In this document: one piece after another, positions 2,132-17,440 of the stretch
How the letters are laid out: each line of letters starts with the position of its first letter
How positions within the stretch are numbered: the stretch's first letter is position 1
Assembly (NCBI RefSeq): GCF_014837105.1
Contig: NZ_JACSPO010000016.1
Location: 1 to 41,471, forward strand
Direction of reading: 5' to 3'
Source: Oceanitalea stevensii
GTDB taxonomy: Bacteria; Actinomycetota; Actinomycetes; Actinomycetales; Actinomycetaceae
Length of the DNA stretch: 41,471 nucleotides
Made by a program: the position numbers and the translations under genes
Notes under the pieces: generated by a model
What the model saw: the letters and a program-made list of their open reading frames with translations, nothing else
Database searches by the model: none
Told to the model about the DNA's origin: nothing

Positions 2132-2317
2132 CACCACCCGGCGGTCCCGGCACGGCCGGGACCGCCGGGTGAGCGAGGTCATCTGGGCCGCGCCACGCCG
2201 CGCCACTAAGGTGGACGGTCGGAGCAGGCCGGTCCCCCGCGCCTCGCTCATCAGGCCCGACGGCGCGCCTCCCAGTCCTGACCACCGGCGCCTGCGCCGT
2301 CGACCACGGGAGACCTC

Positions 2318-3856: not shown

Positions 3857-5331
3857 GAGCGGACCTCGCCCGCCGTCCCCCTCCGCGCGTCGACGACGGC
3901 GACCACGAGGGTGACGAGCAGCAGTGCCGCCGTGGTCGCGAACCCCGCGGTGACGGCGAGCGGCCAGCCGTTGCCGTCGAGCACCGCGAAGGCGACGGCG
4001 GTGATGACGCCCAGCCCCATCGCGGTGCCGATGCGCTGGCCGGTCTGGAGCACGCCACCGGCGCTGCCCGCGTACTCGAGGGGCACCTCCCCCAGCGTGA
4101 TCGTCTGGTTCGGGGTGATGACCAGGCCCTGAGCGCCGCCGACGAAGGCGAGCGTGAGGAGCATCCACCACACGCTCACCCGGCCCGCGTCGACGAGCTG
4201 GACGACGGCGATGCTCAGCCCCAGGCCGACGATCGCGCTGCAGATCCCGGCGACGACGATGCGCCGGCCGTGGCGGCTCACCCGCCGGCCGGACCAGTTC
4301 GCGGTGAACGCGGACAGGACCGCGGCGGGCATGCCGATGAGCCCCGCCTCCAGGGCGCTGCGGCCCAGGCCGTTCTGCACGTAGAGCGCGACGAGCACCC
4401 ACACGGACGTCACGCCCATGAAGTACAGGCCGGCGATGAGCGTGCCGGTGGTGAAGCTGCGGACCCGGAAGAGCGCGAGGTCGACCATGGGCGCGTGCCC
4501 GCGGTCGCGGTAGCGGCGCTCCCACCACAGCCACACGCCGAGGAGCACGACGGCGACGGGCAGGACGAGCCAGCCGCCCGGCCCGAGGGACCGCTCGACG
4601 AAGGGCAGGAGCAGGGCGAGGACCGCGAGGCCGAGCAGGACGGCGCCCACCGGGTCGAGCTCGCGCACCACCGACCGCCCGCCGCGCTCGCGCGGGTTCC
4701 GCAGCGGGCGGGGCAGCCAGCGCAGCGCGAGGACGATCGCGGCGATGCCGACGGGCACGTTGACGAGGAAGGTCCACCGCCAGCCCTGGGCGTCCCCGGC
4801 GAGCTGGACGATGAGCCCGCCGATGACGGGGCCGATGGCGACGGACACTCCGATGACGCTGCCGAGCGCGCCGTAGGCGCGGCCCCGTTCGGGCCCGCGG
4901 AAGTACTGCTGGATCATCCCCACGGCCTGCGGGTTGAGCAGGCCCGACCCCAGGCCCTGAAGGACGCGCGCGATGTTGAGGCTCAGCGGGTCGGGAGCGA
5001 GACCGCCGGCGATCGAGGAGAGGGTGAAGAGGGCGACGCCGGCGATGAACAGCGGGCCCCGGCCGAGGATGTCCCCGGCGCGGCCGGCGGCGACGAGGAC
5101 GACGCCGAAGGTGAGGGCGTAGCCGGTGAGCACCCACTGCAGCTCGGAGTCCGAGGCGTCCAGCCCGCGCTGGATCGAGGGCAGGACGACGTTGATGATG
5201 CTCACGCCCACGAGCGACATGAAGATCGCGACGAGGAGCACCGCGAGGATGCGCCAGCGCCGCGGGTCGGGGGTGGTGCCGTCGTCCGCCGGGCTCAGGG
5301 TGGGCCGCCTCTCCTCGGTGTTCTGCCCCAC
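3853..5331 (-). CDS. MFS transporter, DHA2 (14-TMS drug:H+ antiporter, EmrB/QacA-like)
   Basis: 492 aa with 14 predicted TM segments. MFS motif A-like GRAGDILGRGP is present. The N-terminal layout (WRILAVLLVAIFMSLVGVSIINVVLPSI) is typical of DHA2. Confidence 0.85.
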   Translation of the reverse strand: MGQNTEERRPTLSPADDGTTPDPRRWRILAVLLVAIFMSLVGVSIINVVLPSIQRGLDASDSELQWVLTGYALTFGVVLVAAGRAGDILGRGPLFIAGVALFTLSSIAGGLAPDPLSLNIARVLQGLGSGLLNPQAVGMIQQYFRGPERGRAYGALGSVIGVSVAIGPVIGGLIVQLAGDAQGWRWTFLVNVPVGIAAIVLALRWLPRPLRNPRERGGRSVVRELDPVGAVLLGLAVLALLLPFVERSLGPGGWLVLPVAVVLLGVWLWWERRYRDRGHAPMVDLALFRVRSFTTGTLIAGLYFMGVTSVWVLVALYVQNGLGRSALEAGLIGMPAAVLSAFTANWSGRRVSRHGRRIVVAGICSAIVGLGLSIAVVQLVDAGRVSVWWMLLTLAFVGGAQGLVITPNQTITLGEVPLEYAGSAGGVLQTGQRIGTAMGLGVITAVAFAVLDGNGWPLAVTAGFATTAALLLVTLVVAVVDARRGTAGEVRS

Positions 5332-5373
5332 GAATGCTACGCACCGCCACCGTCAGGTGGATCATGGAGCATC

Positions 5374-6735
5374 GTGACCACACCTCTCTCCCGCTTCGGT
5401 GACCGTGCCCGCCGGTCGGCGTGGGCCGTGTGGCTGGCCGGCGGCGGGGTCTACTTCCTCGCCCTTCTCCACCGCGCCTCGCTCGGCGTGGCGGGCCCGG
5501 ACGCGGTGGACCGTCTCGGGATCACGTCCACCCAGCTCGGCTCCTTCGTCATGGTCCAGCTGGGCCTGTACGCCGTCATGCAGGTGCCCGCCGGCGTCGC
5601 CATCGACCGCTTCGGGCCGCGACGCGTCCTGTTCGTCGCCACGCTCGTCCTCGGGACGGCACAGCTGGGCTTCGCGCTCGCCACGAGCTACCCCGTCGCC
5701 CTCGGGGCCCGCGCCCTGCTCGGCATCGGGGACGCGGCCGTCTTCATCGCCGTCCTGCGGCTGGCCGCGATGTGGTTCCCGCACCACCGGTACGCCTTCC
5801 TCACGATGCTCACCGGGCTCATCGGGATGGCCGGGAACCTCGCCGCCACCGTCCCGCTCGCCGCCGCCCTGGGCTGGCTGGGCTGGACACGCACCTTCGC
5901 CTTCACCGCGGGCGCCTCGCTCCTCTACGCGCTCCTGCTGCTGCGCCCCGCGGTCGCTGCGCCCTACCGTGCGGTGCCGTCGCCTGACGTGCCCGCCGTC
6001 CCGCGCAGCGCCGTCGCCGACGTCCGCGCCGCCTGGACCCGCCGCGAGACCCGCCTGGGCTTCTGGACCCACCAGGCCACGATGACCCCCGGCGTCGTCA
6101 TCTCCCTCGTCTGGGGCTTCCCCTACCTCACCGGCGGGCTCGGCTGGTCCGACGCCGCGGCCGCCTCCCAGCTGTCGGTCTTCGTCCTCGGCACGCTCGC
6201 GATGAGCTTCGTCGTCGGGCCGCTCGCGGGGCGCAGGCCCACGTGGCGCTCCCCGATGGCGATCGCCGTCGCGCTCCTCGGCATCCTCGCCCTCGCCCTC
6301 CTCGTCCTGTGGCCGGGCGGGCAGCCGCCGCACGCCGTCGTGACGATCGCCTTCCTCATGCTCGCGATCGGTGGCCCCGGCTCGCAGATCGGCTTCCACA
6401 TCGCCCGCGACTACAACGCGCCCGTGCGGATCTCGACGGCGACCGGCCTGGTCAACGCGGGTGGCTTCGTCGGGGCGATGGTCGCCGCCATCGTCGTCGG
6501 GCGGGTCCTGGACCTGCGCGGTGGCACCGACCCCAGCCTGCTCGACTACCGGTGGGCCGTGGCCTCCATCGCCCTCATCGCCGTCTTCTCCACCCTCGCG
6601 CAGGTCCTCACGCTCCTCGGGGTGCGCGCGGACATCCTCGAGCGGATGGCCCGCGGCGAGCACGTCGTCGTCCCGCAGACCGAGCACTGGTGGGACCGCG
6701 CCTACCGGCGGCTGGCCCGCCGCCCGCGCCCGTAG
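5374..6735 (+). CDS. MFS transporter (12-TMS)
   Basis: This is the C-terminal 454 aa of the long 3625..6735 frame; the upstream part of that frame is a high-GC artefact. I infer a GTG start at about 5374 (VTTPLSRF...). MFS motifs DRFGPRRVL and GIGDAAVF are present. Start is uncertain by a few codons. Confidence 0.8.
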   Translation: MTTPLSRFGDRARRSAWAVWLAGGGVYFLALLHRASLGVAGPDAVDRLGITSTQLGSFVMVQLGLYAVMQVPAGVAIDRFGPRRVLFVATLVLGTAQLGFALATSYPVALGARALLGIGDAAVFIAVLRLAAMWFPHHRYAFLTMLTGLIGMAGNLAATVPLAAALGWLGWTRTFAFTAGASLLYALLLLRPAVAAPYRAVPSPDVPAVPRSAVADVRAAWTRRETRLGFWTHQATMTPGVVISLVWGFPYLTGGLGWSDAAAASQLSVFVLGTLAMSFVVGPLAGRRPTWRSPMAIAVALLGILALALLVLWPGGQPPHAVVTIAFLMLAIGGPGSQIGFHIARDYNAPVRISTATGLVNAGGFVGAMVAAIVVGRVLDLRGGTDPSLLDYRWAVASIALIAVFSTLAQVLTLLGVRADILERMARGEHVVVPQTEHWWDRAYRRLARRPRP

Positions 6736-7946
6736 CGGTAGCCGGCCCCGGCGAGGAGCACGACGACGCCGCCCGCCACCGCCGTCGGCGGCAGTGACGC
6801 GGCGAGGACGAGGCACCCGACGACGCCCAGGACCTGCAGCAGCCGCGGGGACCGGCGCCGGTGGCGGGGCTGGGTGAAGGCCGCCGCGTTGGCCACGGCG
6901 TAGTAGAGCAGGACGCCGAAGGAGGAGAAGCCGATCGCCTCGCGCAGGTCGACGACCAGCACCAGGACGGCGCCGACGACGGCGAGCACCACCTCCGCGC
7001 GGTGGGGCACCCGGAAGCGCGGGTGCACGGCGGCGAGCCACCCCGGCAGGTCGCCGTTCCGGGCCATGGCCAGGCTCGTCCGGCCGATGCCGGCGAGGAG
7101 CGCGAGCAGCGCGCCGAGCGCCGCGAGCGCCGCCGCGACCCGCACGAGCGGCGCGAGCCACGTCCCGGCGACGGCCTCGGCCACCGGAGCGGCCGAGGCC
7201 GCCAGCCGCTCGGGGCCGAGGGCGAGGAGGACCGTGCCGCCCACGAGCGCGTAGAGCACGAGCGTCAGGCCCAGCGCCGTGAGGATCGCACGGGGGATCA
7301 CCCGCTCGGGGTCGCGCACCTCCTCGCCCAGCGTCGCGACGCGTGCGTAGCCGGCGAAGGCGAAGAAGAGGAGACCCGCCGACTGCAGGACACCGAACCA
7401 GGACAGCTCGGTCGGCACGAGCACCGCCAGGTCGCGGTCTGCCGTGCCCACCCCGACGGTGACCGCGAGCAGCAGGACGAGGACGACGACCGTGACGATC
7501 ACGCGGGCGACCGCTGCGGTGCGGGTGACGCCGACGTAGTTGACCGCGGCGAGGGCGAGGACCGCGAGCGCCGCGGACGGTCGCTGCCACCCCGGCGGGG
7601 CCGCGTAGGCGGCGAAGGTCAGCGCCATGGCGGCGCAGCTCGCGGTCTTGCCGACGACGAAGGACCAGCCGGCGAGGAAGCCGGGCCACGCACCGAGCCG
7701 TTCGCGGCCGTACACGTACGTCCCGCCGGACGTGGGGTACTGCGCGGCGAGCTGGGCCGAGGCCGTCGCGTTGCACCAGGCGACGAGGCCCGCGACCGCG
7801 AGCCCGACGAGGAGGCCGGCGCCGGCCACGGCGGCCGCGGGCGCGAAGGCCGCGAAGACCCCGGCACCGACCATCGAGGACAGCCCGATGACGACGGCGT
7901 CCCCCGTGCCCAGCCGTCGGGCCAGGTCGTCCTCACCGGCGCTCAT
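6702..7946 (-). CDS. APC-superfamily amino acid permease
   Basis: 414 aa, about 12 TM segments. N-terminal GLSSMVGAGVFAAFAPAAA and the YPTSGGTYVYGRERLG segment match APC family signatures. Its 3' end overlaps the MFS gene above by about 34 bp in convergent orientation. Confidence 0.85.
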   Translation of the reverse strand: MSAGEDDLARRLGTGDAVVIGLSSMVGAGVFAAFAPAAAVAGAGLLVGLAVAGLVAWCNATASAQLAAQYPTSGGTYVYGRERLGAWPGFLAGWSFVVGKTASCAAMALTFAAYAAPPGWQRPSAALAVLALAAVNYVGVTRTAAVARVIVTVVVLVLLLAVTVGVGTADRDLAVLVPTELSWFGVLQSAGLLFFAFAGYARVATLGEEVRDPERVIPRAILTALGLTLVLYALVGGTVLLALGPERLAASAAPVAEAVAGTWLAPLVRVAAALAALGALLALLAGIGRTSLAMARNGDLPGWLAAVHPRFRVPHRAEVVLAVVGAVLVLVVDLREAIGFSSFGVLLYYAVANAAAFTQPRHRRRSPRLLQVLGVVGCLVLAASLPPTAVAGGVVVLLAGAGYRYGRGRRASRR

Positions 7947-8051: not shown

Positions 8052-9704
8052 TCAGGCGGCCCCGACGTCGCGGCGGCGCAGCCCGACCAGTCCGGCGAGC
8101 AGGAGCAGGGCGGCGAGTGCGGCCATGACGACCAGCGGGGCGGGCGCGAGGTCGGCGTCGGGGACCGCCGGGGTGTGGGCGAGGGGTGAGACGTCGCGCG
8201 CCCAGTCGGGCAGCCCGAGGAGGTCCCCGAGGACGGCGACGATCACCACCCACACCACCAGTGCCCACGCGAGGGAGGCCGCCCGTGGGGCGAGGCCGTA
8301 CAGCGCCACGGCCAGCGCGCCGACGAGCAGGATCGCGGGCAGGTGGGCGAGCGCGGCGAGCGTGAGCTCACCGACCCAGCCGGCCTCACCGGTGGCCAGC
8401 GCGACACCGGCTCCCACGCCGAGCCCGATGAGCACCTGGACGAGGACGGTCTCGACGAGCACGACGGCGACCCACCGGACGAGGAGGGCGGTGCGCGAGC
8501 TCCCGGAGACGAGCAGGCCCTCCACCCGGCCCGCCCGCTCCTCCGCCCGCAGCTGCAGGACGCCGGAGACGACGAGCGCGGCCGGCCCGACGGCGAGGAA
8601 CCCGAGCATGACCGCGGCGAAGGAGCGGGTGAGGTCGCTGAGGTCGAGGTCGATCCACTCCCCCACCGCGGGGATGTCGGCGACCATGCCCTCGAGGGAG
8701 TTCGCGAGCGTCCCGAAGGCGAGGGCGAAGAGGAACAGGGCGACGGCCCAGCCGATGAAGGTGCCGGACACGAGGCGCCGGGCGAGACCGGTGGGTGCGA
8801 GCAGCGACCGGGACGCGGCCGGCGGCCCGGGGCGGGCGGGCCGCAGCCCGGCGCCGAGGTCGCGCTGCCGGGCGAGGGAGACCGCGAGGACGAGCAGCAG
8901 GACGGTGACGAGGGCCGACACCGCCAGTGGCCACCAGCGCAGGTCGACGTAGAGGCGGGTCTGCTGCGCCCACGCGAAGGGGGAGAGCCACGACAGCCAG
9001 GAGCCCTGGGGCTCGATGACGTCACCGATCCCGCGGACGAGGAACGCGACGGCCACCGCCCCCAGCGCCATGCCCGAGGCGGCCCGGGCGTGCTCGGTGA
9101 GCTGCGCCGTGACCGCGGCGACCGCGCCGAAGACGAGGCCGGTGAGTGCCGTAGCGACGCCGAGCGCCACGGAGTCCGCCACGGCCATCCCGGTTCCCAC
9201 GAGCGCGCCCGTGACGGCGGCACCCACGGCGAGGTCGGCGACGGTGACGGTGAGCACGGCGGCCAGCGCCGGGGCGAAGCGGCCCACGGGCAGTGAGCGC
9301 AGCATCTCCAGGCGGCCGGACTCCTCCTCGCCGCGGGTGTGGCGCACGACGAGGAGCACGCTCATGATCGCGGCCGGCAGGAACACCCACAGCGAGAGCT
9401 CGTTGGCGAGCATGGCGCCGAAGGTGTAGTCGTCCAGCGCGAACGCGGGCCCGGTCATCATGACGGCGGCCGGGCTGTCCATGAGGGCGGCGCGGGCCTG
9501 CAGCGCCTGCGCGTCGGGGTAGGTGTCCTCGAGCGTGGCCACCGAGCCGGCGACGAGGGCGGCGAAGGCGAGCGCCCAGATGAGGATCTGCCGGCGCGAG
9601 ACCCGCAGGAAGAGGCGCAGCAGCCCACCCGTGGCGGTGAGGAGCTCACCGCCGTCGGCCCTCGCGGGCACGGTGGCCGCCGGGGCGGTGCTCGTCGTCG
9701 TCAT
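8052..9704 (-). CDS. ABC-2 type exporter permease (550 aa, duplicated 6-TM halves)
   Basis: Large polytopic membrane protein lying immediately downstream of an ABC ATPase, with an ATGA start/stop overlap at 9701-9704. The topology resembles ABC-2 family permeases. Confidence 0.75.
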   Translation of the reverse strand: MTTTSTAPAATVPARADGGELLTATGGLLRLFLRVSRRQILIWALAFAALVAGSVATLEDTYPDAQALQARAALMDSPAAVMMTGPAFALDDYTFGAMLANELSLWVFLPAAIMSVLLVVRHTRGEEESGRLEMLRSLPVGRFAPALAAVLTVTVADLAVGAAVTGALVGTGMAVADSVALGVATALTGLVFGAVAAVTAQLTEHARAASGMALGAVAVAFLVRGIGDVIEPQGSWLSWLSPFAWAQQTRLYVDLRWWPLAVSALVTVLLLVLAVSLARQRDLGAGLRPARPGPPAASRSLLAPTGLARRLVSGTFIGWAVALFLFALAFGTLANSLEGMVADIPAVGEWIDLDLSDLTRSFAAVMLGFLAVGPAALVVSGVLQLRAEERAGRVEGLLVSGSSRTALLVRWVAVVLVETVLVQVLIGLGVGAGVALATGEAGWVGELTLAALAHLPAILLVGALAVALYGLAPRAASLAWALVVWVVIVAVLGDLLGLPDWARDVSPLAHTPAVPDADLAPAPLVVMAALAALLLLAGLVGLRRRDVGAA

Positions 9705-10627
9705 CGTGCGGCCCTCCCCCCTGCGGTCTCGTGCTCCGGCTCGTCGCCGTAGTGGCGCAGGAACAGGTCCTCGAGCGAGGGCGGGGTGATGGTGAGGTTG
9801 TGCACGCCGAGCTCCGCGAGCACGGGGAGCAGCTGCGGGACGGCGGTGTCGTCGACGTCGAAGCGCAGCCGGCCGCCGTCGACGGCGAGGTCGTGCACCC
9901 CCGGTGCCCGTCGGACGCGGGCGAGGTCCGCCGTCGTCGTGGCCGTGACGGTGGACCGGGTGAGGTGGCGCAGCTCGGCCAGGGTGCCGGTCTCGACGTC
10001 GCGGCCCGCGCGGATGATCGTCACGGTGTCGCAGAGCTTCTCGACCTCGGCGAGGATGTGGCTGGAGAGCAGGACGGTGCGTCCCTGGTCCCGCAGGCGG
10101 CGGACCTCCTCGGTGAAGACGGCCTCCATGAGGGGGTCCAGGCCGGAGGTCGGCTCGTCGAGCAGGTAGAGCTCGACGTCGCGGGACAGGGCCGCGACGA
10201 GCGCGACCTTCTGGCGGTTGCCCTTGGAGTAGGTCCGGGTCCGCTTGGTGGGGTCGAGCTCGAAGCGCTCGAGCAGCTCGGCGCGCCGGCGGCGGTGGGC
10301 GGTGCCCGTCTCGTGCCGGGTGAGCACGTCGATCGCCTCACCGCCCGTGAGGGCCGGCCACAGGCTCGTGTCACCGGGGACGTAGGCGAGGCGGCGGTGG
10401 ACGGCGACGGCGTCGCTCCACGGGTCACGGCCGAGGACCTGGGCGGTGCCCGAGTCCGCTCGCAGCATGCCGAGCAGGACGCGGATGGTCGTCGACTTGC
10501 CCGACCCGTTGGGGCCGAGGAAGCCGGTGACCTGACCGGCCGGCACGCGGAGCGAGAAGCCGTCGAGGGCGCGGGTGGAGCCGAAGGTCTTGACGAGGTC
10601 CTGCGCGAGGATGGCGGTGTCCGACAT
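9701..10627 (-). CDS. ABC transporter ATP-binding protein (ABC-2/DrrA-like)
   Basis: The true start is an internal ATG at 10625-10627 (MSDTAILAQDLVKTFG), preceded by GGAGA; the longer ORF in the track is a read-through artefact. Walker A is GPNGSGKST, the ABC signature is YSKGNRQKV and Walker B is LYLLDEPTSGLD. Confidence 0.9.
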   Translation of the reverse strand: MSDTAILAQDLVKTFGSTRALDGFSLRVPAGQVTGFLGPNGSGKSTTIRVLLGMLRADSGTAQVLGRDPWSDAVAVHRRLAYVPGDTSLWPALTGGEAIDVLTRHETGTAHRRRRAELLERFELDPTKRTRTYSKGNRQKVALVAALSRDVELYLLDEPTSGLDPLMEAVFTEEVRRLRDQGRTVLLSSHILAEVEKLCDTVTIIRAGRDVETGTLAELRHLTRSTVTATTTADLARVRRAPGVHDLAVDGGRLRFDVDDTAVPQLLPVLAELGVHNLTITPPSLEDLFLRHYGDEPEHETAGGRAAR

Positions 10628-10638
10628 CGTGTCTCCTG

Positions 10639-11301
10639 TCAGCGTTCGGGTGCCTGGCCGGTGCGGCTCTCGACGTAGGAGTCGAGCAGGGACCGGTCGG
10701 TGAGCAACGGCTCGGTGTAGACCTCGAGGAGCGGGCCGACGATGCGCTCGGAGTAGGCGCGCAGCCAGCCCGGCAGCTCGTCGAGGTCGAGGTGCTCCTG
10801 CTGGGCGGGCAGCTGGAGGAGCAGCGCGCCGAGCGCCTGCTCGGTGAGGACCCGCGCACGGGCCTCGGGGTTCCTGCTGGGCCGGACGACGCCGGCCGCC
10901 TCCCCCTGCCGGAGGTACTCGACGGCGTCGCTGACGAAGCCGTCGACGAGCTGGGTGGCCAGCGGGCCGCCGGCCTGCAGCCGGCGCAGGACGTAGCCGA
11001 CGACAGGCGCGTAGCCCTCGATCTGCGCCAGCTGCGTGAGCATCGCCCCCGCCCCACCGCCACCGCCGAGCACGGGGGCCTTGTTCTCGCGGGCCACCGT
11101 GAGGACGTGGGCGTCGCATGCCTCGCGCAGCCCGTCGCGGGAGCCGAAGTGGTGGAGGATGAGCGCCGCGCTCACCCCGGCGTCGGCCGCGACGGTGCGG
11201 AGCGGGGCGGCCACGCCGTCGGCGGCGAAGCGACGCACGGCGGCGTGGAGGATGCGGGCACGGGCGGTGAGCTCGCCACCGACGGCCTGGGCTGAACCCA
11301 T
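10639..11301 (-). CDS. TetR/AcrR-family transcriptional regulator
   Basis: ATG at 11299-11301 (MGSAQAVGGELTARARILHAAVRRFAADGVAAPLRTVAADAGVSAALILHHFGSRDGL). The N-terminal HTH is TetR-type. It lies 11 bp upstream of the ABC ATPase on the same strand. Confidence 0.85.
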   Translation of the reverse strand: MGSAQAVGGELTARARILHAAVRRFAADGVAAPLRTVAADAGVSAALILHHFGSRDGLREACDAHVLTVARENKAPVLGGGGGAGAMLTQLAQIEGYAPVVGYVLRRLQAGGPLATQLVDGFVSDAVEYLRQGEAAGVVRPSRNPEARARVLTEQALGALLLQLPAQQEHLDLDELPGWLRAYSERIVGPLLEVYTEPLLTDRSLLDSYVESRTGQAPER

Positions 11302-11326
11302 GTTCAATAGGCTAAACACGTGTTCA
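11293..11326. promoter_or_regulatory. Candidate TetR operator: two adjacent palindromes overlapping the tetR start codon
   Basis: The first palindrome is TGAACccatGTTCA (11293-11306), a perfect 5-bp inverted repeat spanning the ATG. The second is AAACACGTGTTCA (11314-11326), containing the perfect 10-bp palindrome AACACGTGTT. Both sit in the 46-bp gap between tetR and the upstream FtsX gene. Confidence 0.5.
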
Positions 11327-11347
11327 GCCGCGGTCAAGGGGAGCGCC

Positions 11348-12571
11348 TCAGAGTCCTCCGCGCAGTGCTGCCACCGGCTCGAGGGACGCCGCCTTGAGCG
11401 CCGGGTAGGCCCCGGCGAGCAGGCCGATGACACCGCCGAGGGCTGCCGAGCCGGCGACCAGGCCGAGGTCGAGGATGGGCGTCCACTTCTGGACCACGCT
11501 GATCCCCACGACGGCGAAGGCGCCCATCGAGGCCCCGATGAGCCCGCCGAGCAGGCCGATGGTCACCGACTCGGCGATGAACTGGGTGGCGATCTGTCGG
11601 CGGCTGGCGCCCAGCGCCCGCCGCAGGCCGATCTCCCCCACCCGCTCCATGACGCCCAGCAGCGTGACGTTGGCGATCCCGAGCCCACCGACGAGCAGGG
11701 CCACCCCGCCGAGCGCGAGGAAGATCGCGTTGATGTCGCCCTGGACGTTCTCCCGCAGCACGTTCCCCAGGGACGGCGCCTGGACGGTGACGTTCTCCGG
11801 GGTGTTCGGCGAGAGCGCGAGCGGTGCCTGCTCGGCCAGCAGCGGGCCGGCGCCGACGGCGATGCGCACCTGCACCTCGGTGGCCGCCGTGAGGTCGAGG
11901 TCGGCGCGCGCGGTCCCCAGCGGGAGGATGACGGCGTCGAGGACGTCCTTGCGGCGGGCGACGTCGTCGATGATGCCGATGACCGTGTAGGCCTCCTCAC
12001 CGATGAAGATGGCGGGCTGGGAGTCCACGCGGTTGATGCTCAGCCGCTGGGCGGCGCCGGAGCCGAGGACGACGACGCGGTCGGCGCGGGCGTCGTGCCC
12101 GGCGTCGAACATGCGCCCGGTGGCCAGCTCCCCGCGCAGGGCGGGCAGCAGCTGGTCCGAGCTCGCCACGAGGCTGGGCTGCGCCTGGGTGGCCGCCGCG
12201 GGGTCGACGAGCGGCACGGAGGTGATCCGGCGTCCCCCGGCGTCGAGGTCGGCCATGAGGACGGCGGCCTCGACCCCGGCCAGGCGCTCGAGCCGCTCGG
12301 AGCTGTCCCACGGCAGCGCCGTGCGTGAGCGGCTCGCGCCGCCCGCGCCCTCCGCGGTGCCGGGCGTGACGACGGCCTGGGTGGCCGCGACGGCGTCGAA
12401 CTGGCGGGCGATCTGCCCGCCACCGGTCTGGGCCATCCCGATGGTGACGACGAGCGCCGCGATGCCGAGCACCGTGCCGAGGATCGTGAGGGCGAGCTTG
12501 CCCGGGCGCGCGCCGATGCCGTGCGCGGACTCGCGCAGCAGGTCGCGCAGCCCGAAGCCGTTGCCGTTCAC
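11348..12571 (-). CDS. ABC transporter permease, FtsX/MacB-like (4 TM with large extracytoplasmic domain)
   Basis: The N-terminal TM helix is followed by an extracytoplasmic domain of about 230 aa and then three C-terminal TM helices (FIAESVTIGLLGGLIGASMGAF...), which is the classic MacB/FtsX topology. It overlaps the ATPase stop by 4 bp. Confidence 0.85.
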   Translation of the reverse strand: MNGNGFGLRDLLRESAHGIGARPGKLALTILGTVLGIAALVVTIGMAQTGGGQIARQFDAVAATQAVVTPGTAEGAGGASRSRTALPWDSSERLERLAGVEAAVLMADLDAGGRRITSVPLVDPAAATQAQPSLVASSDQLLPALRGELATGRMFDAGHDARADRVVVLGSGAAQRLSINRVDSQPAIFIGEEAYTVIGIIDDVARRKDVLDAVILPLGTARADLDLTAATEVQVRIAVGAGPLLAEQAPLALSPNTPENVTVQAPSLGNVLRENVQGDINAIFLALGGVALLVGGLGIANVTLLGVMERVGEIGLRRALGASRRQIATQFIAESVTIGLLGGLIGASMGAFAVVGISVVQKWTPILDLGLVAGSAALGGVIGLLAGAYPALKAASLEPVAALRGGL

Positions 12572-13290
12572 GGCACCTCCCGCAGCACGCCGTCGGTGAT
12601 CCGCACGCGGCGCTGGGCGCGGGCGGCGACGGCGTCGTCGTGGGTGATGACGAGGAGGGTGAGGCCGTCGGCGTGCAGCTCGTCGAAGAGGTCGAGGACC
12701 TCCCCGGACGTCACGGTGTCGAGGTTGCCGGTGGGCTCGTCGGCGAGCAGCAGCCGCGGCGCGGTGACGACCGCCCGGGCGACGGCGACGCGCTGGCGCT
12801 CCCCGCCGGAGAGCGTGGTGGGGCGGAAGCCGATGCGGTGCTCGAGGCCCACCCGCTGCAGGGCGGCGTAGGCGCGGTGCAGCCGCTCCTCGCGCGGCAG
12901 GCCGGAGTACATCGTGGCGAGCAGGACGTTCTCCAGGACCGTGCGGTGCGGGAGCAGGTGGAAGGCCTGGAAGACGAAGCCGATGAGCCCGCCACGCAGC
13001 GCCGTGCGCTGCCGCTCGCCCACCGTGTGGGTGGGGATGCCGTCGAGCCAGTACTCCCCGGCCGAGGGCCGGTCGAGGAGGCCGAGGAGGTTGAGCAGCG
13101 TCGACTTGCCCGAGCCGGAAGGCCCGACGATGGAGAGGTACTCCCCGCGTGGCACCCGCAGGGAGACCGGGTGCAGCGCCGTGACGGCGGGCGGTCCGGG
13201 GAAGGAGCGGGAGACCTCACGCAGGTCGACGACGGGCGGCACCTCGCCGTCCTCGACGACCGCGTCCTCGCGGACCGGCGCGGCCGTCAC
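12568..13290 (-). CDS. ABC transporter ATP-binding protein, MacB/LolD/FtsE-like
   Basis: Walker A is GPSGSGKST, Q-loop FQAFHLL, signature LSGGERQRVAVARA, Walker B LLLADEPTGNLD and H-loop ITHD. Confidence 0.9.
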   Translation of the reverse strand: MTAAPVREDAVVEDGEVPPVVDLREVSRSFPGPPAVTALHPVSLRVPRGEYLSIVGPSGSGKSTLLNLLGLLDRPSAGEYWLDGIPTHTVGERQRTALRGGLIGFVFQAFHLLPHRTVLENVLLATMYSGLPREERLHRAYAALQRVGLEHRIGFRPTTLSGGERQRVAVARAVVTAPRLLLADEPTGNLDTVTSGEVLDLFDELHADGLTLLVITHDDAVAARAQRRVRITDGVLREVP

Positions 13291-14873
13291 CGGCCGACCA
13301 CCACGAGGTCGCCGACGGCCAGGCCCTCAGCGCTGACCTCGACGTACCCGTCGGCCGTGAGGCCGGTCTCGACGACGACGATCTCGGTGCGCTCACCGCC
13401 GCGGTCGACCTCCACACGGCTCTCCCCGCCGGCGCCGGCGGTCAGCGCGGCGACGGGCACGACGAGGACCTCCCCGCCGGTCGACTCGAGCGGGACCGTC
13501 ACGCGGACGTTGGAGCCGACGATCTCGGCGCGCTGCTCCTCGGTGATCTCGACCGGGACGAGGACGAGCTCGTGCCGGTCCCCGCCGCCACCGCCACCGC
13601 CGCCGTCCTCGCCGTCGCCCTCGCCGTCGGCGGTGGGCCGGGCGCTGGGGGTGCGCGTCTCCGTGACGGTCGCCTCGATCTCCTCCTCCCCCACGGTGAA
13701 GTAGGCCGTCGTCCCCTCGGGCACGAGGGCGGCGTCGGCGTCGGAGACGCTGGCGAGGACCTGGAGGGTCGCCCCGGAGATGGTGAGGGCCTCCCCGCTC
13801 ACCGTGTCCCCGCGGCGCACCATGACGGAGTCGACCCGGCGCGGCAGGGTGTCGACGTAGACGACCTCCGCCGCGGGCAGCGGGGTCATCGCGGTGTTGC
13901 GCGCCTCGGCGAGCGCGCGCGCGGCGTCCTCGACGGCGGTGGCGGCGGCGTCACGGGCGGAGCGCTCGGCGGAGGTGTCCGGGGCGGTGAGCGCCTCCTC
14001 GCGCTCGGCGCGGACGACCGCCAGCTCCTCCCGGGCCTGGGTGACGGCCTCGGCGCCCTCCGGCGCGGCGAGCTGGACGGCTCGCTCGGCGCGGGCCACC
14101 GCGGTGTCCAGCCGCAGCCGCTCCGAGCGGGGCAGCCCGCCGGCCGCACGGTCGACCTCTGCCTGCGCCTGCGCGTAGGCCTCCTCGGCCATCCGCAGCC
14201 CCTCACGGGCGGCGGTGAGCGCCTCGCCGGCCCCCTCCTCCGCGACGGGCGACGCGTAACCGGCCTCCTGGTAGAGGGCGTCGACGGCGGCGGAGGTGGC
14301 GGCGTCGAAGACGTCGGAGTCGCGGTTGCCGACGCCCAGGCCCAGCGAGTGCAGCGCGTCCTTGAGCTGGGTGACGTCGGGGCCCGAGCTGCCCACGCGC
14401 AGCGTGCGGTAGACGGGCAGCTCCCCGGGCAGCACGATGACCGGCCGCCCGGCGACCTCCATGATCACCTGCCCGGCCTCGACGAGGTCCCCGACCTCGG
14501 GCACCTGCCCGGTGACGATGGCGGGTCCACCCATGTCGGTGGTCTCGAGGGCCACGGAGACCGGGTCGTCGTAGAGCGCGTCACCGCGCAGGGTGAGGTC
14601 GGTGGACAGCTCGCGCTCCTCGACCGGCACGGTGATGAGCCCGGCCTCGGGCGGCGCGGCCTCCGCCGCACGCTGCGCCGGGGAGATGACGAGGTTGCTC
14701 ACCCCGATCCCGGCCGCGAGGCTCGCGACGGCGGTCGCGGCGACGACGACGATCGTCCGGTTCGCGCGGGGCGGCCGGACCCCGGGCGGCAGCTCCTCCT
14801 CGGGCTCCCCCGGCAGGTCGAGGACGGCGTCGACCGGCTCGCCGGGCTGCTGCCGGCGGCGGAGGCGGATCAC
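13287..14873 (-). CDS. Periplasmic adaptor / membrane-fusion protein (HlyD/MacA-like) with a peptidoglycan-binding domain
   Basis: An N-terminal TM anchor (IVVVAATAVASLAAGIGV) is followed by beta-barrel/lipoyl-like segments, a long coiled-coil (AEEAYAQAQAEVDRA...) and a PG_binding_1-like motif (GPDVTQLKDALHSLGLGVGNRDSDVFDAATSAAVDALYQEAGY). A poly-Gly acidic linker lies near the C-terminus. It overlaps both neighbouring genes by 4 bp. Confidence 0.8.
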   Translation of the reverse strand: MIRLRRRQQPGEPVDAVLDLPGEPEEELPPGVRPPRANRTIVVVAATAVASLAAGIGVSNLVISPAQRAAEAAPPEAGLITVPVEERELSTDLTLRGDALYDDPVSVALETTDMGGPAIVTGQVPEVGDLVEAGQVIMEVAGRPVIVLPGELPVYRTLRVGSSGPDVTQLKDALHSLGLGVGNRDSDVFDAATSAAVDALYQEAGYASPVAEEGAGEALTAAREGLRMAEEAYAQAQAEVDRAAGGLPRSERLRLDTAVARAERAVQLAAPEGAEAVTQAREELAVVRAEREEALTAPDTSAERSARDAAATAVEDAARALAEARNTAMTPLPAAEVVYVDTLPRRVDSVMVRRGDTVSGEALTISGATLQVLASVSDADAALVPEGTTAYFTVGEEEIEATVTETRTPSARPTADGEGDGEDGGGGGGGGDRHELVLVPVEITEEQRAEIVGSNVRVTVPLESTGGEVLVVPVAALTAGAGGESRVEVDRGGERTEIVVVETGLTADGYVEVSAEGLAVGDLVVVGR

Positions 14874-15931
14874 GCGTCCTTCCCGTACGCCGCGACGACG
14901 GCGTCGATGTCCGCCTGGTAGGTCTCGATGAACTTCTTCTCGAGCTCGAACTGGATCTCGAGCGACCGGGCCTCCACGTCCAGCTCCTCCTGGCAGCGGA
15001 AGTCGGCGACGGCGGCGGCGATCTCGCGCTCGCGGAGCTCGGCGAGCCCCATCTCCTCCATGACCTCCGCGACGGGGTCGCCACCGCCCGCGGCGTCCAG
15101 GGCCTCCCAGTCGAGGTTCTCCCAGTCGATCTCGGCGTCGGCCTTCTGGTAGAGCGCGTCGTACTCCTCGTAGAACTGCTCGGTCGCCGCCATGGGGGTG
15201 GTCATGCCGGTGATGCCGGCGTCAGCCATGCAGGCGGCCCACTCGTCGTTGACCTCCCGCATGCGGGGGTCCTTCTCACCGTCCTGGTAGAGCTGGTCCA
15301 TGGCCTCGAAGAGCTCGGTGAAGGCCGGGTCGGACCACGGGTCCCCCTCCTCGTAGACCTCGTGGGTGGCCAGGCCCTGGCAGCCGGCCTCCTCCCAGTC
15401 GTACTCCTCGAGGATCTCCTCGTCCTCGACCCACTCCTCCTCCTCGAAGGTCTGTGGGCCGTAGAGGGCCTCGAAGTAGGCCTCCTGCTCGGAGGCCGAC
15501 ATCCCGTTGACGTACTCGTCGTTGGGGTCGACCCACTCCTCCTCGGGCTCCGCGACCTCCTCCTCCTGCGCCGACCACGGGTCGGTGGTCACCCCGTAGC
15601 CGTACTGCTGGGCCCACTCCTCGGTGTTCCAGTCCTCGTCCTCGGTGACGATCGTGGTACCCATGTCGTACTCGACGGGCGTGTACTCGAAGCCCTCGTC
15701 CGCCATGCAGGAGGCGACGGTCTCCTCGACCTGCCGCATGCGCTCCGCCTCCTCGCGCTCCATCTCCTCCGGGTCCTGCCCGCTGCCCCAGACGACGCCG
15801 AGCGCCTCGTTGAGGGGGCTGTCCTCCCAGGTGAGCTCGGCGCTCTCGGCGGCGGGGCCGTCCGAACAGGCGGTCAGCGCCGCGAGAGCAGCGACGGAGG
15901 CAAGGACGACTCGGGCGGTGCGCATGGGCAT
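14870..15931 (-). CDS. Secreted lipoprotein, extremely acidic and Trp-rich, with an internal duplication (hypothetical)
   Basis: Signal peptide plus lipobox (LAALTAC, Cys22). About 12 Trp residues in EEW/DEW/DPW contexts and a very high Glu/Asp content. The motif x-ACMAD-xG occurs twice (VASCMADEGF and WAACMADAGI). It is the first gene of the adaptor-ATPase-permease operon, sharing a 4-bp overlap with the adaptor. Confidence 0.6.
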   Translation of the reverse strand: MPMRTARVVLASVAALAALTACSDGPAAESAELTWEDSPLNEALGVVWGSGQDPEEMEREEAERMRQVEETVASCMADEGFEYTPVEYDMGTTIVTEDEDWNTEEWAQQYGYGVTTDPWSAQEEEVAEPEEEWVDPNDEYVNGMSASEQEAYFEALYGPQTFEEEEWVEDEEILEEYDWEEAGCQGLATHEVYEEGDPWSDPAFTELFEAMDQLYQDGEKDPRMREVNDEWAACMADAGITGMTTPMAATEQFYEEYDALYQKADAEIDWENLDWEALDAAGGGDPVAEVMEEMGLAELREREIAAAVADFRCQEELDVEARSLEIQFELEKKFIETYQADIDAVVAAYGKDA

Positions 15932-16079
15932 CTCCTCGGGTGGGGCGCGCTCCAGTGCGAGCCGATGCGAGTGACGCTAGTGAGCGGGCCACCTCGGCGG
16001 CGTCGTACCAAGGAATGATTTCCGTCGCCCGGGGGACTCGATTCGGTAACGGTCGGGCGCCAGCACCTAGAGTGGGACG

Positions 16080-16766
16080 GTGCCTGCAACCATCAAGGAC
16101 CCGATCGTCTGGATCGACTGCGAGATGACCGGGCTGGACCTCAGCCGGGACGCGCTCATCGAGGTCGCCGTCGTCGTCACCGACTCCGAGCTGCGGCCGG
16201 TGGACGCGGGGATCGACCTCGTCATCGCACCGCCCGCCGAGGCCGTGGAGCAGATGGGTGACGTCGTGCGCGAGATGCACACGACCTCCGGCCTCCTCGA
16301 GGAGCTCGACGCCGGGCTCACCATGGCCGACGCGCAGGAGCGGGTCCTGGCCTACGTGCGCCGCTGGGTGCCCGAGCCGCGCAAGGCCCCGCTCGCGGGC
16401 AACTCCGTGGGCACCGACCGCACCTTCCTCGAGCGCGACATGCCCGCGCTCGTCGAGCACCTGCACTACCGGATCATCGACGTGTCCTCGGTCAAGGAGC
16501 TGGCCCGGCGCTGGTACCCGCGCGCCTACTTCCACTCCCCGCAGAAGCACGGTGGCCACCGCGCGCTGGCGGACATCCTCGAGAGCATCGACGAGCTGCG
16601 CTACTACCGCGCCGTCCTGTGGCCCGAGGGGGAGGGACCGGACACGCCCACCGTCAAGGCGGCCGCCGAGGCCGTCACCTCGAGCCCGACGGCGGCGGAG
16701 GTCGAGCGCCTCGCCGCGAAGGCGGCCGCCAGGGCCGCCGGTGAGACACGCATCACCGGCTCCTGA
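16080..16766 (+). CDS. orn: Oligoribonuclease (3'-5' exoribonuclease, DEDDh family)
   Basis: GTG start at 16080. Exo I motif is WIDCEMTGLD. Text reads ...LAGNSVGTDRTFLERDMPALVEHLHYRIIDVSSVKELARRWYP. In actinobacteria orn is conserved immediately upstream of tRNA-His. Confidence 0.9.
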   Translation: MPATIKDPIVWIDCEMTGLDLSRDALIEVAVVVTDSELRPVDAGIDLVIAPPAEAVEQMGDVVREMHTTSGLLEELDAGLTMADAQERVLAYVRRWVPEPRKAPLAGNSVGTDRTFLERDMPALVEHLHYRIIDVSSVKELARRWYPRAYFHSPQKHGGHRALADILESIDELRYYRAVLWPEGEGPDTPTVKAAAEAVTSSPTAAEVERLAAKAAARAAGETRITGS

Positions 16767-16839: not shown

Positions 16840-16916
16840 GGTGGGTGTAGCTCAGCTGGTAGAGCGCCGCGTTGTGGTCGCGGATGTCGCGGGTTCAAGT
16901 CCCGTCACTCACCCGG
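16840..16916 (+). tRNA. tRNA-His (anticodon GTG), with encoded G-1
   Basis: Acceptor stem gGTGGGTG/CACTCAC with one G.T pair; D-arm AGCTCAGCTGGTAGAGC; anticodon stem-loop CCGCG-TTGTGGT-CGCGG; T-arm GCGGG-TTCAAGT-CCCGT; discriminator C; no encoded CCA. Confidence 0.85.
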
Positions 16917-16920
16917 AGAG

Positions 16921-16950
16921 CGAGGCCCGGACCGACAGGTCCGGGCCTCG
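16921..16950 (+). terminator. Perfect 12-bp stem / 6-nt loop hairpin directly after tRNA-His
   Basis: CGAGGCCCGGAC-cgacag-GTCCGGGCCTCG. GC-rich intrinsic-terminator-like structure; there is no U-tract, which is common in high-GC actinobacteria. Confidence 0.55.
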
Positions 16951-16980
16951 CCCATTTCCCGCGGCCCCGGCAGCGCCTCC

Positions 16981-17440
16981 GGCCCCCGGCTCCCGCCTCC
17001 GGGCCCCAGCTCCCGCCTCCGGGCCCCAGCTCCCGCCTCGGGGCCCCAGCTCCCGCCTCCGGGCCCCAGCTCCCGCCTCCCCCGGTCCACGCTGCTGATG
17101 CTGATCCGCGCGGCGGATATACCAGCAGCGCGGACCGGTATCAGCAGCGGGGTCCGCCCGGCATCACCAGCGGGGTCCGCCCACCTCCCCGCCCCCGGCT
17201 CCCGCCTCCGGGGCGCCGGTTCCCGCCTCCGGGCCCCAGCCTCCGGGGCGCCGGCTCGCGCCTCCGGGGCGCCGGCTCCCGCCTCCCCCGGTCCACGCTG
17301 CTGATGCTGATCCGCGCGGCGGATATATCAGCAGCGCGGACCGGTATCAGCAGCGGGGCCCGACCGATATCAGCAGCGGGGTCCGCCCGGCAGCAGCGGG
17401 TCCGGTTCAGCAGCGAGGTCCGCGGGGGCGCGGACCGTAC
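16981..17440. repeat. Composite non-coding repeat array
   Basis: Five tandem copies of a 20-mer GGGCCCCAGCTCCCGCCTCC (16981-17080) are followed by a roughly 45-bp unit containing the inverted repeat GCTGCTGAT...ATCAGCAGC around a GATATATC core (17081-17160). The whole block recurs about 206 bp later in degenerate form (17190-17370). At least eight spaced copies of (AT)CAGCAGCGGGG lie in 17121-17420. Confidence 0.7.

What the first reader, a model, noticed from the sequence alone, without database searches (positions are those of the whole stretch)
13287..15931. Acidic Trp-rich lipoprotein with duplicated ACMAD motif heading a MacAB-like exporter operon
The first gene of a four-gene operon with 4-bp overlaps (lipoprotein, PG-binding periplasmic adaptor, FtsE-like ATPase, FtsX-like permease) encodes a 353-aa lipoprotein with the lipobox LAALTAC. 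It is dominated by Glu/Asp and has about 12 Trp in EEW, DEW, DPW and IDW contexts. An internal duplication is marked by x-ACMAD-xG (VASCMADEGFEY and WAACMADAGITG), and there are four non-lipobox Cys. I do not recognise this as a known family. Its position suggests either a substrate or cargo, or an extracytoplasmic accessory or immunity component of the MacB-type transporter. This is analogous to YknWXYZ or to the lipoprotein partners of MacB/FtsX systems, but with a very different protein.
Basis: seen in the sequence. Interest (0 to 1): 0.6.

Follow-up and report, generated by a model that had tools for sequence, protein, structure and literature searches.

The report
Unclassified acidic lipoprotein tied to MacB-type pump
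A very acidic, helical lipoprotein with four invariant cysteines, matching no described protein family or solved fold, is almost always encoded directly in front of a cell-wall-binding adaptor and a MacB-type ABC pump in many actinobacteria, so it is probably an uncharacterised fourth component of that pump, though what it does there is unknown.

Summary
Window 14870-15931 (- strand) is a real gene (GC3 0.97). It encodes a 353-aa lipoprotein with lipobox LTAC, 27.8% Asp+Glu, 12 Trp and 4 non-lipobox Cys. It heads a four-gene operon with three 4-nt overlaps: lipoprotein, adaptor, ABC ATPase, MacB-type permease.

The lipoprotein matches no Pfam, NCBIfam or PDB sequence. A confident AlphaFold model (pLDDT 88.6) is all-helical and has no meaningful PDB fold match. 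The family is large: 9124 clusters at 50% identity in the representative library. All named members are called "hypothetical". The four Cys are invariant, and the acidity is family-wide.

In every one of 75 genome loci long enough to judge, lipoprotein, adaptor, ATPase and permease follow in the same order on the same strand. Nesterenkonia, Jiangella and two metagenome contigs keep the cassette too. One Bifidobacteriaceae copy beside a transposase is orphaned. Twelve of 80 loci carry 2-4 lipoprotein paralogues.

The adaptor model matches MacA/AcrA/MexA (Foldseek E about 1e-15) and carries an inserted peptidoglycan-binding domain.

[quoted passage not shown] Its exact role (ligand capture, adaptor regulation or cargo) is inferred, not shown. 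The internal duplication is only weakly supported.

The parts
14870..15931 (-). Acidic all-alpha lipoprotein, 353 aa. Signal peptide 1-21 and lipobox L-T-A-C22. Short tether, then a globular domain from about residue 35. Invariant Cys at 75, 184, 234 and 313. The motif A-x-CMAD-x-G occurs at 73-80 and 232-239.
   Evidence: ORF and composition. GC3 0.969. No Pfam/NCBIfam/PDB match. AF2 pLDDT 88.6, 13 helices. No fold match. Conservation.
15932..16079 (-). Upstream intergenic region shared with the divergently transcribed oligoribonuclease-like gene. It holds the GAGGAG ribosome-binding site and presumably the operon promoter, which was not identified.
   Evidence: Sequence. The consensus promoter scan found nothing in 10500-16300.
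13287..14873 (-). Periplasmic adaptor (membrane fusion protein), 528 aa. N-terminal TM helix 39-61, lipoyl-like beta domain, inserted PG_binding_1-like domain (about 163-203), long alpha-hairpin (215-328), and beta-barrel/membrane-proximal domains (337-527).
   Evidence: Weak PG_binding_1 hit, found in 42 of 64 homologues, with HlyD_3 in 5. AF2 pLDDT 88.5. Foldseek E 8e-16 to 1e-12 to TMexC, MacA, AcrA and MexA, and 5e-9 to Spr0693.
12568..13290 (-). ABC ATPase of the MacB/LolD/FtsE type, 240 aa.
   Evidence: ABC_tran E 1.5e-33. NCBIfam LolD, MacB and FtsE models score about 207-212 bits, all below their equivalog cut-offs.
11348..12571 (-). Type VII (MacB-type) ABC permease, 407 aa. Four TM helices with a roughly 220-aa extracytoplasmic MacB_PCD between TM1 and TM2.
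   Evidence: MacB_PCD E 7.9e-18 and FtsX E 6.8e-16. PDB sequence hits to Spr0695 (5xu1, 8.7e-21) and MacB (5lil, 6e-19). TM scan.

Best explanation
The gene encodes a Sec-exported, lipid-anchored, all-helical protein. It is held about 15 residues from the outer face of the cytoplasmic membrane and is probably stabilised by two disulfides.

[quoted passage not shown] That machine consists of a MacB-type permease, its ATPase, and a membrane-anchored adaptor carrying a peptidoglycan-binding domain.

The four genes are made together from one translationally coupled operon. The most likely mode of action has three steps:
- The lipoprotein docks on the adaptor, less probably on the MacB periplasmic domain, in the wall-membrane space.
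- Its polyanionic, aromatic-rich surface binds a cationic or amphipathic ligand at the membrane surface.
- ATP-driven mechanotransmission by the MacB dimer then expels that ligand through the adaptor channel, away from the membrane.

Shown: gene reality, lipobox, conservation, absence from known families and folds, obligate synteny, and the adaptor and permease identities.

Inferred: physical interaction, disulfides, ligand binding, and the direction and nature of transport.
For: Synteny:
- 75 of 75 genome loci that reach far enough keep lipoprotein, adaptor, ATPase and permease in the same order on the same strand, across at least 18 genera.
- The same holds in Beutenbergia, Nesterenkonia, Jiangella and two metagenome contigs.
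- The flanking genes are not conserved between genera.

Coupling:
- The window has three 4-nt overlaps.
- An in-frame adaptor start lies within 20 nt of the lipoprotein stop in 64 of 77 loci, and 26 of those are exact 4-nt overlaps.

Localisation:
- The lipobox L-[ATSG]-[GA]-C is present in essentially all members.
- The tether is 12-23 aa, which places the domain at the height of the MacB periplasmic domain and the membrane-proximal adaptor domains.

Fold and conservation:
- The model is a compact, confident all-alpha fold (pTM 0.80).
- Four Cys are invariant in 117 sequences.
- Acidity is a family trait: median 23.7% D+E against 4.9% K+R, with about 10% aromatic residues.

Partners:
- The adaptor is a true MacA/AcrA-like adaptor, and the permease is MacB-type.

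Co-evolution:
- Pairwise distances of the lipoprotein track those of the adaptor best (r 0.92).
- The partial r controlling for the permease is 0.56, against 0.14 for the lipoprotein-permease pair controlling for the adaptor. This is a weak hint only.

Precedent:
- Type VII ABC systems characteristically work with a dedicated extracytoplasmic partner: EnvC, LolA and TesA (PMC12646458), and YknW with YknXYZ (PMC5985334).
Against: - No interaction, ligand or phenotype evidence exists. All family members carry the name 'hypothetical'.
- One to four paralogous lipoproteins can precede a single pump. That is not expected of a fixed-stoichiometry structural subunit and fits specificity factors or cargo equally well.
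- The adaptor ectodomain in this organism is also acidic (17.8% D+E), so part of the acidity may be a general trait of exported proteins in this haloalkaliphilic lineage.
- The mirror-tree signal can arise simply because both proteins are fast-evolving and extracytoplasmic.
- Orphan or displaced copies exist: the Bifidobacteriaceae copy beside a transposase, and the Cellulomonas paralogue 2 kb downstream of the pump.
- Only the best 80 of 417 genome matches were inspected.
Confidence: 0.55

Rival explanations
1. Cargo. The lipoprotein is itself the substrate. After Sec export and lipidation, the MacB-type transporter extracts it from the outer leaflet (Lol-like or Aat-like) and releases or displays it in the cell wall or on the surface. 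There its polyanionic surface has a structural or cation-binding role.
For: - The cargo-next-to-transporter arrangement has a precedent in the Aat system, which traffics the lipoprotein CexE (PMC7943197), and LolCDE extracts lipoproteins (PMC5985334).
- The lipoprotein is the first gene in the operon.
- It is the fastest-evolving component (mean distance 0.56 against 0.28-0.46 for the others).
- It can be multiplied to 2-4 paralogues per pump.
Against: - The model is a compact, roughly 330-residue, probably disulfide-bonded globule. That is much larger than the roughly 10 kDa upper range quoted for MacB substrates (PMC5985334), so passage through an adaptor channel is implausible.
- No LolA-like acceptor is encoded in the cassette.
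- Tight 4-nt translational coupling to the adaptor suggests matched stoichiometry rather than bulk cargo.
- The permease scores far better against MacB than against LolC/E models (78.7 bits against about 20).
Confidence: 0.15
2. Regulator or assembly factor without ligand binding. The lipoprotein controls oligomerisation or the conformational state of the adaptor, as proposed for YknW with YknX. Alternatively it is a coiled-coil-like coupling protein, in the manner of EnvC, PcsB or SweC/D with FtsEX, that relays MacB mechanotransmission to the wall-bound adaptor or to a cell-wall enzyme encoded elsewhere.
For: - The protein has a long C-terminal helical hairpin (H286-317 and H319-349).
- The adaptor carries a PG-binding domain.
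- The lipoprotein co-varies best with the adaptor.
- In Microbacterium the cassette sits in a housekeeping region (pyrG-xerD ... parA-scpAB) with no regulator nearby, which would fit a constitutive envelope function.
- YknW and FtsEX partners are precedents (PMC5985334, PMC7668044).
Against: - No hydrolase is conserved in the neighbourhood.
- This reading does not explain why extreme acidity and aromatic richness are conserved family-wide, or why paralogues multiply.
Confidence: 0.2
3. Unrelated neighbour. The lipoprotein is merely co-located and has a function independent of the transporter.
For: One orphan copy lies next to a transposase (L085). Cellulomonas paralogues are not directly adjacent to a pump.
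Against: Order and strand are conserved in 75 of 75 loci across many genera while the flanks vary. The reverse look-up from an adaptor orthologue (Nesterenkonia) finds the lipoprotein immediately upstream. The genes have overlapping stop and start codons.
Confidence: 0.04

Closest known systems
YknWXYZ of Bacillus (four-component Gram-positive MacAB-like system)
   Same: Both combine a Gram-positive MacB-type permease, an ATPase and a MacA-like adaptor with a co-transcribed fourth protein encoded first in the operon. YknX binds peptidoglycan (PMC5985334). Here the adaptor has an explicit PG_binding_1 domain.
   Different: YknW is an integral multi-pass membrane protein. This protein is a lipid-anchored soluble all-alpha domain with no TM helix beyond the signal peptide. 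No sequence or fold relationship to YknW was found by any search, though a direct comparison was not run.
Spr0693-0694-0695 of Streptococcus pneumoniae (MacAB-like pump, PDB 5xu0/5xu1)
   Same: The permease is the best PDB sequence match (5xu1, E 8.7e-21). The adaptor model matches Spr0693 (E 5e-9). Both are monoderm systems without an outer-membrane duct.
   Different: The pneumococcal operon has three genes and no lipoprotein partner, and its adaptor has no PG_binding_1 insert (PMC5768738 abstract).
YbjP, lipoprotein partner of TolC in MacAB-TolC and AcrABZ-TolC (PDB 9qgy, 9tg4, 9v53)
   Same: YbjP is a recently recognised lipoprotein that is a stoichiometric extra component of tripartite pumps (PMC13082787, PMC13095208). 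These entries appeared as matches to the adaptor model.
   Different: YbjP binds the outer-membrane duct TolC in diderms and is not encoded with the pump. The protein here is in monoderms, is encoded in the operon, and its model did not match any chain of those entries.
Extracytoplasmic partners of other Type VII ABC transporters: EnvC (FtsEX), LolA (LolCDE), TesA (YbbAP)
   Same: The general principle is the same: a MacB-fold transporter works on, or through, a dedicated partner protein outside the membrane, often encoded nearby (PMC12646458, PMC7668044).
   Different: There is no fold similarity to any of them. None of them is an acidic four-Cys helical lipoprotein. Here an adaptor is present as well.
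Aat system with its lipoprotein cargo CexE/dispersin
   Same: A MacB/Lol-like ABC system with an adaptor handles a lipidated protein encoded in the same locus (PMC7943197).
   Different: The Aat cargo is small, glycine-acylated by AatD and exported through a TolC-like duct in diderms. Here there is no acyltransferase and no duct, the lipobox is a classical Cys type, and the protein has about 330 residues.

Membership tests
Bacterial lipoprotein (Lgt/LspA substrate) | N-terminal signal peptide ending in a lipobox [LVI]-[ASTVI]-[GAS]-C | tested here: met
   The window protein has LTAC at 19-22 after a hydrophobic stretch at 5-21. In 113 family members the box is LAGC, LTGC, LAAC, LTAC and similar. 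Actual lipidation cannot be tested here.
Any described protein family (Pfam-A 2025, NCBIfam 20.0) for the lipoprotein | Score above the curated cut-off of some model | tested here: not met
   For the window protein, the only hits are chance-level (E 0.03-0.07, far below cut-off). Across 117 members, no family is hit by more than 4. The precomputed Pfam column is empty for all 120 plus 120 listed homologues.
Type VII (MacB-type) ABC transporter, for the permease and ATPase | Four-TM FtsX-type membrane domain with a large extracytoplasmic MacB_PCD between TM1 and TM2, plus a separate or fused ABC ATPase | tested here: met
   MacB_PCD at 27-237 and FtsX at 287-399. The TM scan gives 1+3 helices. 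PDB hits to MacB and Spr0695. ABC_tran E 1.5e-33.
MacB proper (macrolide exporter equivalog) / LolCDE / FtsEX | Score above NCBIfam equivalog cut-offs | tested here: not met
   Permease: MacB 78.7 bits against a cut-off of 966, LolE/C about 20 against 439-473, FtsX_actino 26 against 250. ATPase: LolD 211.7 against 307.75, FtsE 207.5 against 264.85. The system is therefore a distinct subfamily of the superfamily, not an orthologue of any of these.
Periplasmic adaptor protein / membrane fusion protein (MacA/AcrA/HlyD class), for the adaptor | Lipoyl domain, alpha-hairpin, beta-barrel and membrane-proximal domain architecture | tested here: met
   The AF2 model has a beta domain, four long helices at 215-328 and C-terminal beta domains. 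Foldseek probability is 1.00, with E 8e-16 to 1e-9 to TMexC, MacA, AcrA, MexA, CusB and EmrA. HlyD_3 is detected in 5 of 64 homologues. Hexamer formation cannot be tested here.
PG_binding_1 domain in the adaptor | Pfam PF01471 above gathering score | tested here: inconclusive
   The window protein scores 18.1 bits against a cut-off of 23. However, 42 of 64 homologues match at E of 0.01 or better, with a best E of 2e-6. The model shows the expected small helical domain at 165-203.
YknW-like fourth component | Multi-pass integral membrane protein co-transcribed with YknXYZ | tested here: not met
   The lipoprotein has only one hydrophobic segment, the signal peptide. It resembles YknW in operon position only.
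   hhalign of the N-half against the C-half gives 50 aligned columns, E 1.2e-4 and probability 55%. The A-x-CMAD-x-G motif is conserved in both places. Cys-Cys distances could not be read because model coordinates are not exposed.

The most novel reading that the evidence does not exclude
The lipoprotein defines a new class of extracytoplasmic partner for Type VII ABC transporters. It would be a membrane-tethered, polyanionic 'capture' protein, functionally the exporter-side counterpart of a substrate-binding protein. It would select cationic or amphipathic molecules at the membrane surface and feed them to a wall-anchored MacAB-like pump in monoderm actinobacteria, with paralogue expansion tuning specificity. 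An equally novel alternative is a Lol-like extraction system for a specific lipoprotein in a monoderm.
Probability: 0.25. Interest if true: 0.75.

Novelty: new variant of a known kind. Interest (0 to 1): 0.58.

Why it matters
What MacAB-like pumps and their adaptors do in bacteria without an outer membrane is an acknowledged open question (PMC5985334). Recent work shows that Type VII ABC transporters, and tripartite pumps generally, have overlooked partner proteins: YbjP and TesA (PMC13082787, PMC12646458).

This finding gives a large, unannotated protein family, with thousands of sequence clusters and no Pfam model, a firm genomic assignment to one such machine. It also comes with a confident structural model that has no solved relative.

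That makes the family a concrete target for complex prediction, pull-downs and knockouts in tractable Microbacterium or Cellulomonas strains, and a candidate for a new Pfam or NCBIfam entry. If the protein proves to be a ligand-capture or specificity subunit, it would add a new functional principle to ABC exporters in Gram-positive bacteria.

Tried and rejected
Searches that found nothing:
- Pfam and NCBIfam scans of the window protein and of all 117 aligned members gave no consistent family.
- A profile search of PDB sequences matched only the signal peptide of LpqN, at E about 3.
- The Foldseek afdb50 library was not available.
- Longer family members (P0126, P0219, P0234, P0216) showed no fused domains. 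Their extensions look like mis-called starts or frameshifts.
- A search of the plasmid collection found no copy.
- Consensus promoter and terminator scans around the operon found nothing.
- Five literature searches found no paper on this family or on an actinobacterial MacAB-like system with a lipoprotein.

Ideas considered and rejected:
- Antisense artefact: rejected on GC3 and on conservation in hundreds of genomes.
- A conserved regulator next to the cassette: none of the 80 best loci has a two-component system within 7 kb. The recurrent neighbours in Microbacterium are housekeeping genes. Two-component systems appear only in two divergent lineages.
- Heme or metal-centre motifs: no CXXCH-type motif is present. 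This rests on reading the sequence only.

Limitations of my own analyses:
- My ORF caller mis-picked antisense ORFs in some loci, so synteny claims rest on tblastn and on the called genes from the look-up of encoding contigs.
- Residue-level co-evolution between lipoprotein and partners was not attempted, because only 74 paired sequences were in hand.


Full report
**Source and anatomy.** The window is a contig of Oceanitalea stevensii: a database protein is 100% identical and sits on a 41,471-bp contig. On the minus strand lie four genes:
- a 353-aa ORF at 14870-15931;
- a 528-aa ORF at 13287-14873;
- a 240-aa ABC ATPase at 12568-13290;
- a 407-aa permease at 11348-12571.

All three junctions are 4-nt GTGA overlaps, and GAGGAG precedes the first ATG. 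GC at third codon positions is 0.97 in all four frames, against 0.57-0.70 in the overlapping alternative ORFs. The first gene is therefore real and not an antisense artefact.

**Check of the observation.** The first protein has a hydrophobic N-terminus ending in LTAC22. It contains 19.3% Glu and 8.5% Asp, 12 Trp, and four further Cys at 75, 184, 234 and 313. The mature protein has a net charge of about -84.

The repeated motif is A-x-CMAD-x-G (ASCMADEG and AACMADAG) rather than ACMAD twice. A repeated Cys-containing tetrapeptide arises in 2.4% of shuffles.

**The lipoprotein family.**
- A word-indexed search found 127 relatives, all 'hypothetical' and all without Pfam domains. They come from Georgenia, Beutenbergia, Microbacterium, Cellulomonas, Agromyces, Modestobacter, Xylanimonas and others.
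- A profile search of a 1.84-billion-protein representative library found 9124 clusters at E of 1e-3 or better, and 1562 at 1e-30 or better.
- In an alignment of 117 members, the four non-lipobox Cys are invariant. So are G80, F81, Y83, P85, G111, G113, G158, G183, A188, E303 and A307. W179 and W231 are nearly invariant.
- The lipobox is L-[ATSG]-[GA]-C almost throughout. Only 12-23 residues (median 15) separate the lipid-modified Cys from the first conserved motif, DSPL.
- Acidity is a family trait: median 23.7% D+E against 4.9% K+R, with about 33 aromatic residues per protein.
- The Trp count is partly lineage-specific, with a family median of 7 against 12 here.

**No known family or fold.**
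- Pfam-A and NCBIfam give nothing for the window protein.
- No family is shared by more than 4 of the 117 members.
- A profile search of all PDB sequences matches only a signal peptide.
- An AlphaFold2 model built on the 117-sequence alignment is confident (mean pLDDT 88.6, pTM 0.80). It is entirely helical, with 13 helices, and ends in a long hairpin at 286-317 and 319-349.
- Foldseek against the PDB gives no hit at E of 1e-3 or better.
- The AlphaFold-database library could not be searched.

**Internal duplication.** Splitting the family alignment at residue 195 and comparing the halves with hhalign aligns 50 columns. These cover the helix leading into the CM-x-[DE]-x-G-F motif, with E 1.2e-4 but only 55% probability. 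An ancient duplication of a helix-plus-motif element is plausible, but two full repeated domains are not demonstrated.

**Link to the transporter.** A scan of one genome per species (GTDB r232) found 417 stretches encoding a relative, and the best 80 loci were fetched.
- tblastn with the four window proteins shows lipoprotein, adaptor, ATPase and permease in the same order on the same strand in every locus whose contig reaches far enough (75 of 75). The other five loci are truncated.
- The Oceanitalea neighbours (oligoribonuclease, TetR) are shared only with Georgenia.
- In Microbacterium the cassette lies between xerD and parA-scpAB, downstream of pyrG. In Beutenbergia it follows a galactose operon. 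The four-gene cassette is therefore the conserved unit.
- A reverse look-up from an adaptor orthologue in Nesterenkonia finds a 48%-identical lipoprotein immediately upstream, again with a 4-nt overlap.
- More divergent members keep the cassette too: Jiangella (32% identical lipoprotein, 41% adaptor) and two metagenome contigs.
- An in-frame adaptor start lies within 20 nt of the lipoprotein stop in 64 of 77 loci, and 26 are exact 4-nt overlaps.
- Exceptions exist. A Bifidobacteriaceae MAG has an orphan copy beside a DDE transposase and a PG_binding fragment. A few Cellulomonas species have an extra paralogue about 2 kb beyond the permease.
- There are no plasmid copies.

**Paralogues.** Twelve of 80 loci hold two to four family members, nearly always in tandem directly upstream of the adaptor. 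There are three before one pump in a Propionicimonas MAG (L068), and three plus one for the two pumps in a Microbacterium (L007).

**The partners.**
- The permease has MacB_PCD and FtsX domains. Its best PDB sequence matches are S. pneumoniae Spr0695 and MacB. It is far below the NCBIfam equivalog cut-offs for MacB, LolC/E and FtsX. It is thus a distinct Type VII ABC subfamily.
- The second gene gives only a sub-threshold PG_binding_1 hit, but 42 of 64 homologues match that domain and 5 match HlyD_3.
- The adaptor's AlphaFold model (pLDDT 88.5) shows an N-terminal TM helix, a beta domain, a small helical insert at 165-203, four long helices at 215-328 and C-terminal beta domains.
- That model matches TMexC, MacA, AcrA, MexA, CusB, EmrA and Spr0693 with Foldseek E from 8e-16 to about 4e-7.
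- It is therefore a genuine periplasmic adaptor carrying a cell-wall-binding insert.

**Which partner?** On 74 complete loci, pairwise sequence distances of the lipoprotein correlate best with those of the adaptor (r 0.92). The partial correlation controlling for the permease is 0.56. The lipoprotein-permease correlation controlling for the adaptor falls to 0.14. This is a weak hint of closer coupling to the adaptor. It could also reflect shared extracytoplasmic evolutionary rates. The lipoprotein evolves fastest of the four (mean distance 0.56, against 0.46, 0.28 and 0.37).

**Mechanism.**
Shown:
- a real, Sec/lipobox-type exported protein;
- a short tether;
- a compact helical model;
- four invariant Cys;
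- family-wide acidity and aromatic richness;
- obligate, translationally coupled synteny with a PG-binding adaptor and a MacB-type ABC transporter.

Inferred:
- It is a dedicated extracytoplasmic component of this machine. This rests on the established pattern that Type VII ABC transporters act from outside the membrane by mechanotransmission and work with dedicated partners: EnvC, LolA, TesA and YknW (PMC5985334, PMC12646458, PMC7668044).
- It sits at the height of the MacB periplasmic domain and the membrane-proximal adaptor domains.
- It probably binds a cationic or amphipathic ligand through its acidic and aromatic surface, handing it to the pump for expulsion through the adaptor channel. 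The ligand-capture step is my inference from composition and paralogue expansion only.

Rivals:
- Cargo, by analogy with Aat/CexE (PMC7943197). This is disfavoured by the size and compact fold of the protein, by the absence of an acceptor, and by the coupling.
- A non-ligand-binding regulator or assembly factor of the adaptor, like YknW.
- An unrelated neighbour, which is nearly excluded.

In two divergent lineages an OmpR-type two-component system adjoins the cassette. That would suit an envelope-stress or antimicrobial response. None of the 80 best loci has one.

**Comparison with what is known.** The system works like the Gram-positive MacAB-like pumps YknWXYZ and Spr0693-0695. It differs in having an explicit PG_binding_1 insert in the adaptor and a fourth component unrelated to YknW. 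The closest conceptual analogue for a lipoprotein added to a tripartite pump is YbjP (PMC13082787, PMC13095208), but YbjP binds TolC in diderms and has no fold similarity. No paper on this family was found.

**Verdict.** This is a new variant of a known kind of system, containing a protein family and fold that are themselves undescribed. Interest is moderate to fairly high: it would not overturn anything, but it gives a concrete handle on the open question of what MacAB-like pumps do in monoderm bacteria.

Noticed in passing
window 16841-17388: A tRNA-His gene (16841-16914, + strand) is followed by a 206-bp unit repeated twice (16982-17388, 89% match). The unit is itself built from 20-23-bp GC-rich sub-repeats (for example CGCCTCCGGGCCCCAGCTCC, 5.3 copies at 16974-17080).
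   Followed up: partly
window 8052-11433 (- strand): Directly downstream of the permease lies a TetR-like regulator ORF (within 10639-11433), followed by a second, unrelated ABC ATPase (within 9701-11119) and a 550-aa ORF (8052-9704). tblastn found the TetR gene only in L001-L003 of the Georgenia loci L001-L004, and L004's contig ends immediately after the permease.
   Followed up: partly
L068:1232-8870 and L007:1-11700: There are tandem expansions of the lipoprotein. A Propionicimonas MAG has three paralogues in a row before one adaptor/ATPase/permease set. One Microbacterium has three paralogues before one pump and a fourth before a second complete pump.
   Followed up: partly
L084:4218-6900 and L086:11831-14060: In Jiangella and in one metagenome contig, an OmpR-type response regulator and a HAMP/HisKA kinase directly adjoin the cassette. 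They are divergent upstream in Jiangella and co-directional downstream in the metagenome contig. None of the 80 best genome loci has such a pair within 7 kb.
   Followed up: partly
L085:6266-9064: A Bifidobacteriaceae MAG carries an orphan lipoprotein homologue between a 154-aa PG_binding_1-like fragment and a DDE transposase, with no ABC genes nearby. This looks like a cassette disrupted by an insertion element.
   Followed up: no
L005-L025 and other Microbacterium loci, roughly 1-7000 and 11600-15000: In Microbacterium the cassette is inserted into the conserved housekeeping block recN - pyrG (CTP synthase) - NUDIX - xerD | cassette | parA - scpA - scpB - rluB.
   Followed up: partly
window 14793-14873: The public annotation starts the adaptor 27 codons downstream (501 aa), which would remove the 4-nt overlap with the lipoprotein gene. 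Close homologues align over the whole 528 aa, which favours the longer form.
   Followed up: partly
L084:8164-9504 compared with window 13287-14873: The Jiangella adaptor lacks about 55 residues of the alpha-hairpin region present in the Oceanitalea protein, so hairpin length varies within this adaptor subfamily.
   Followed up: no
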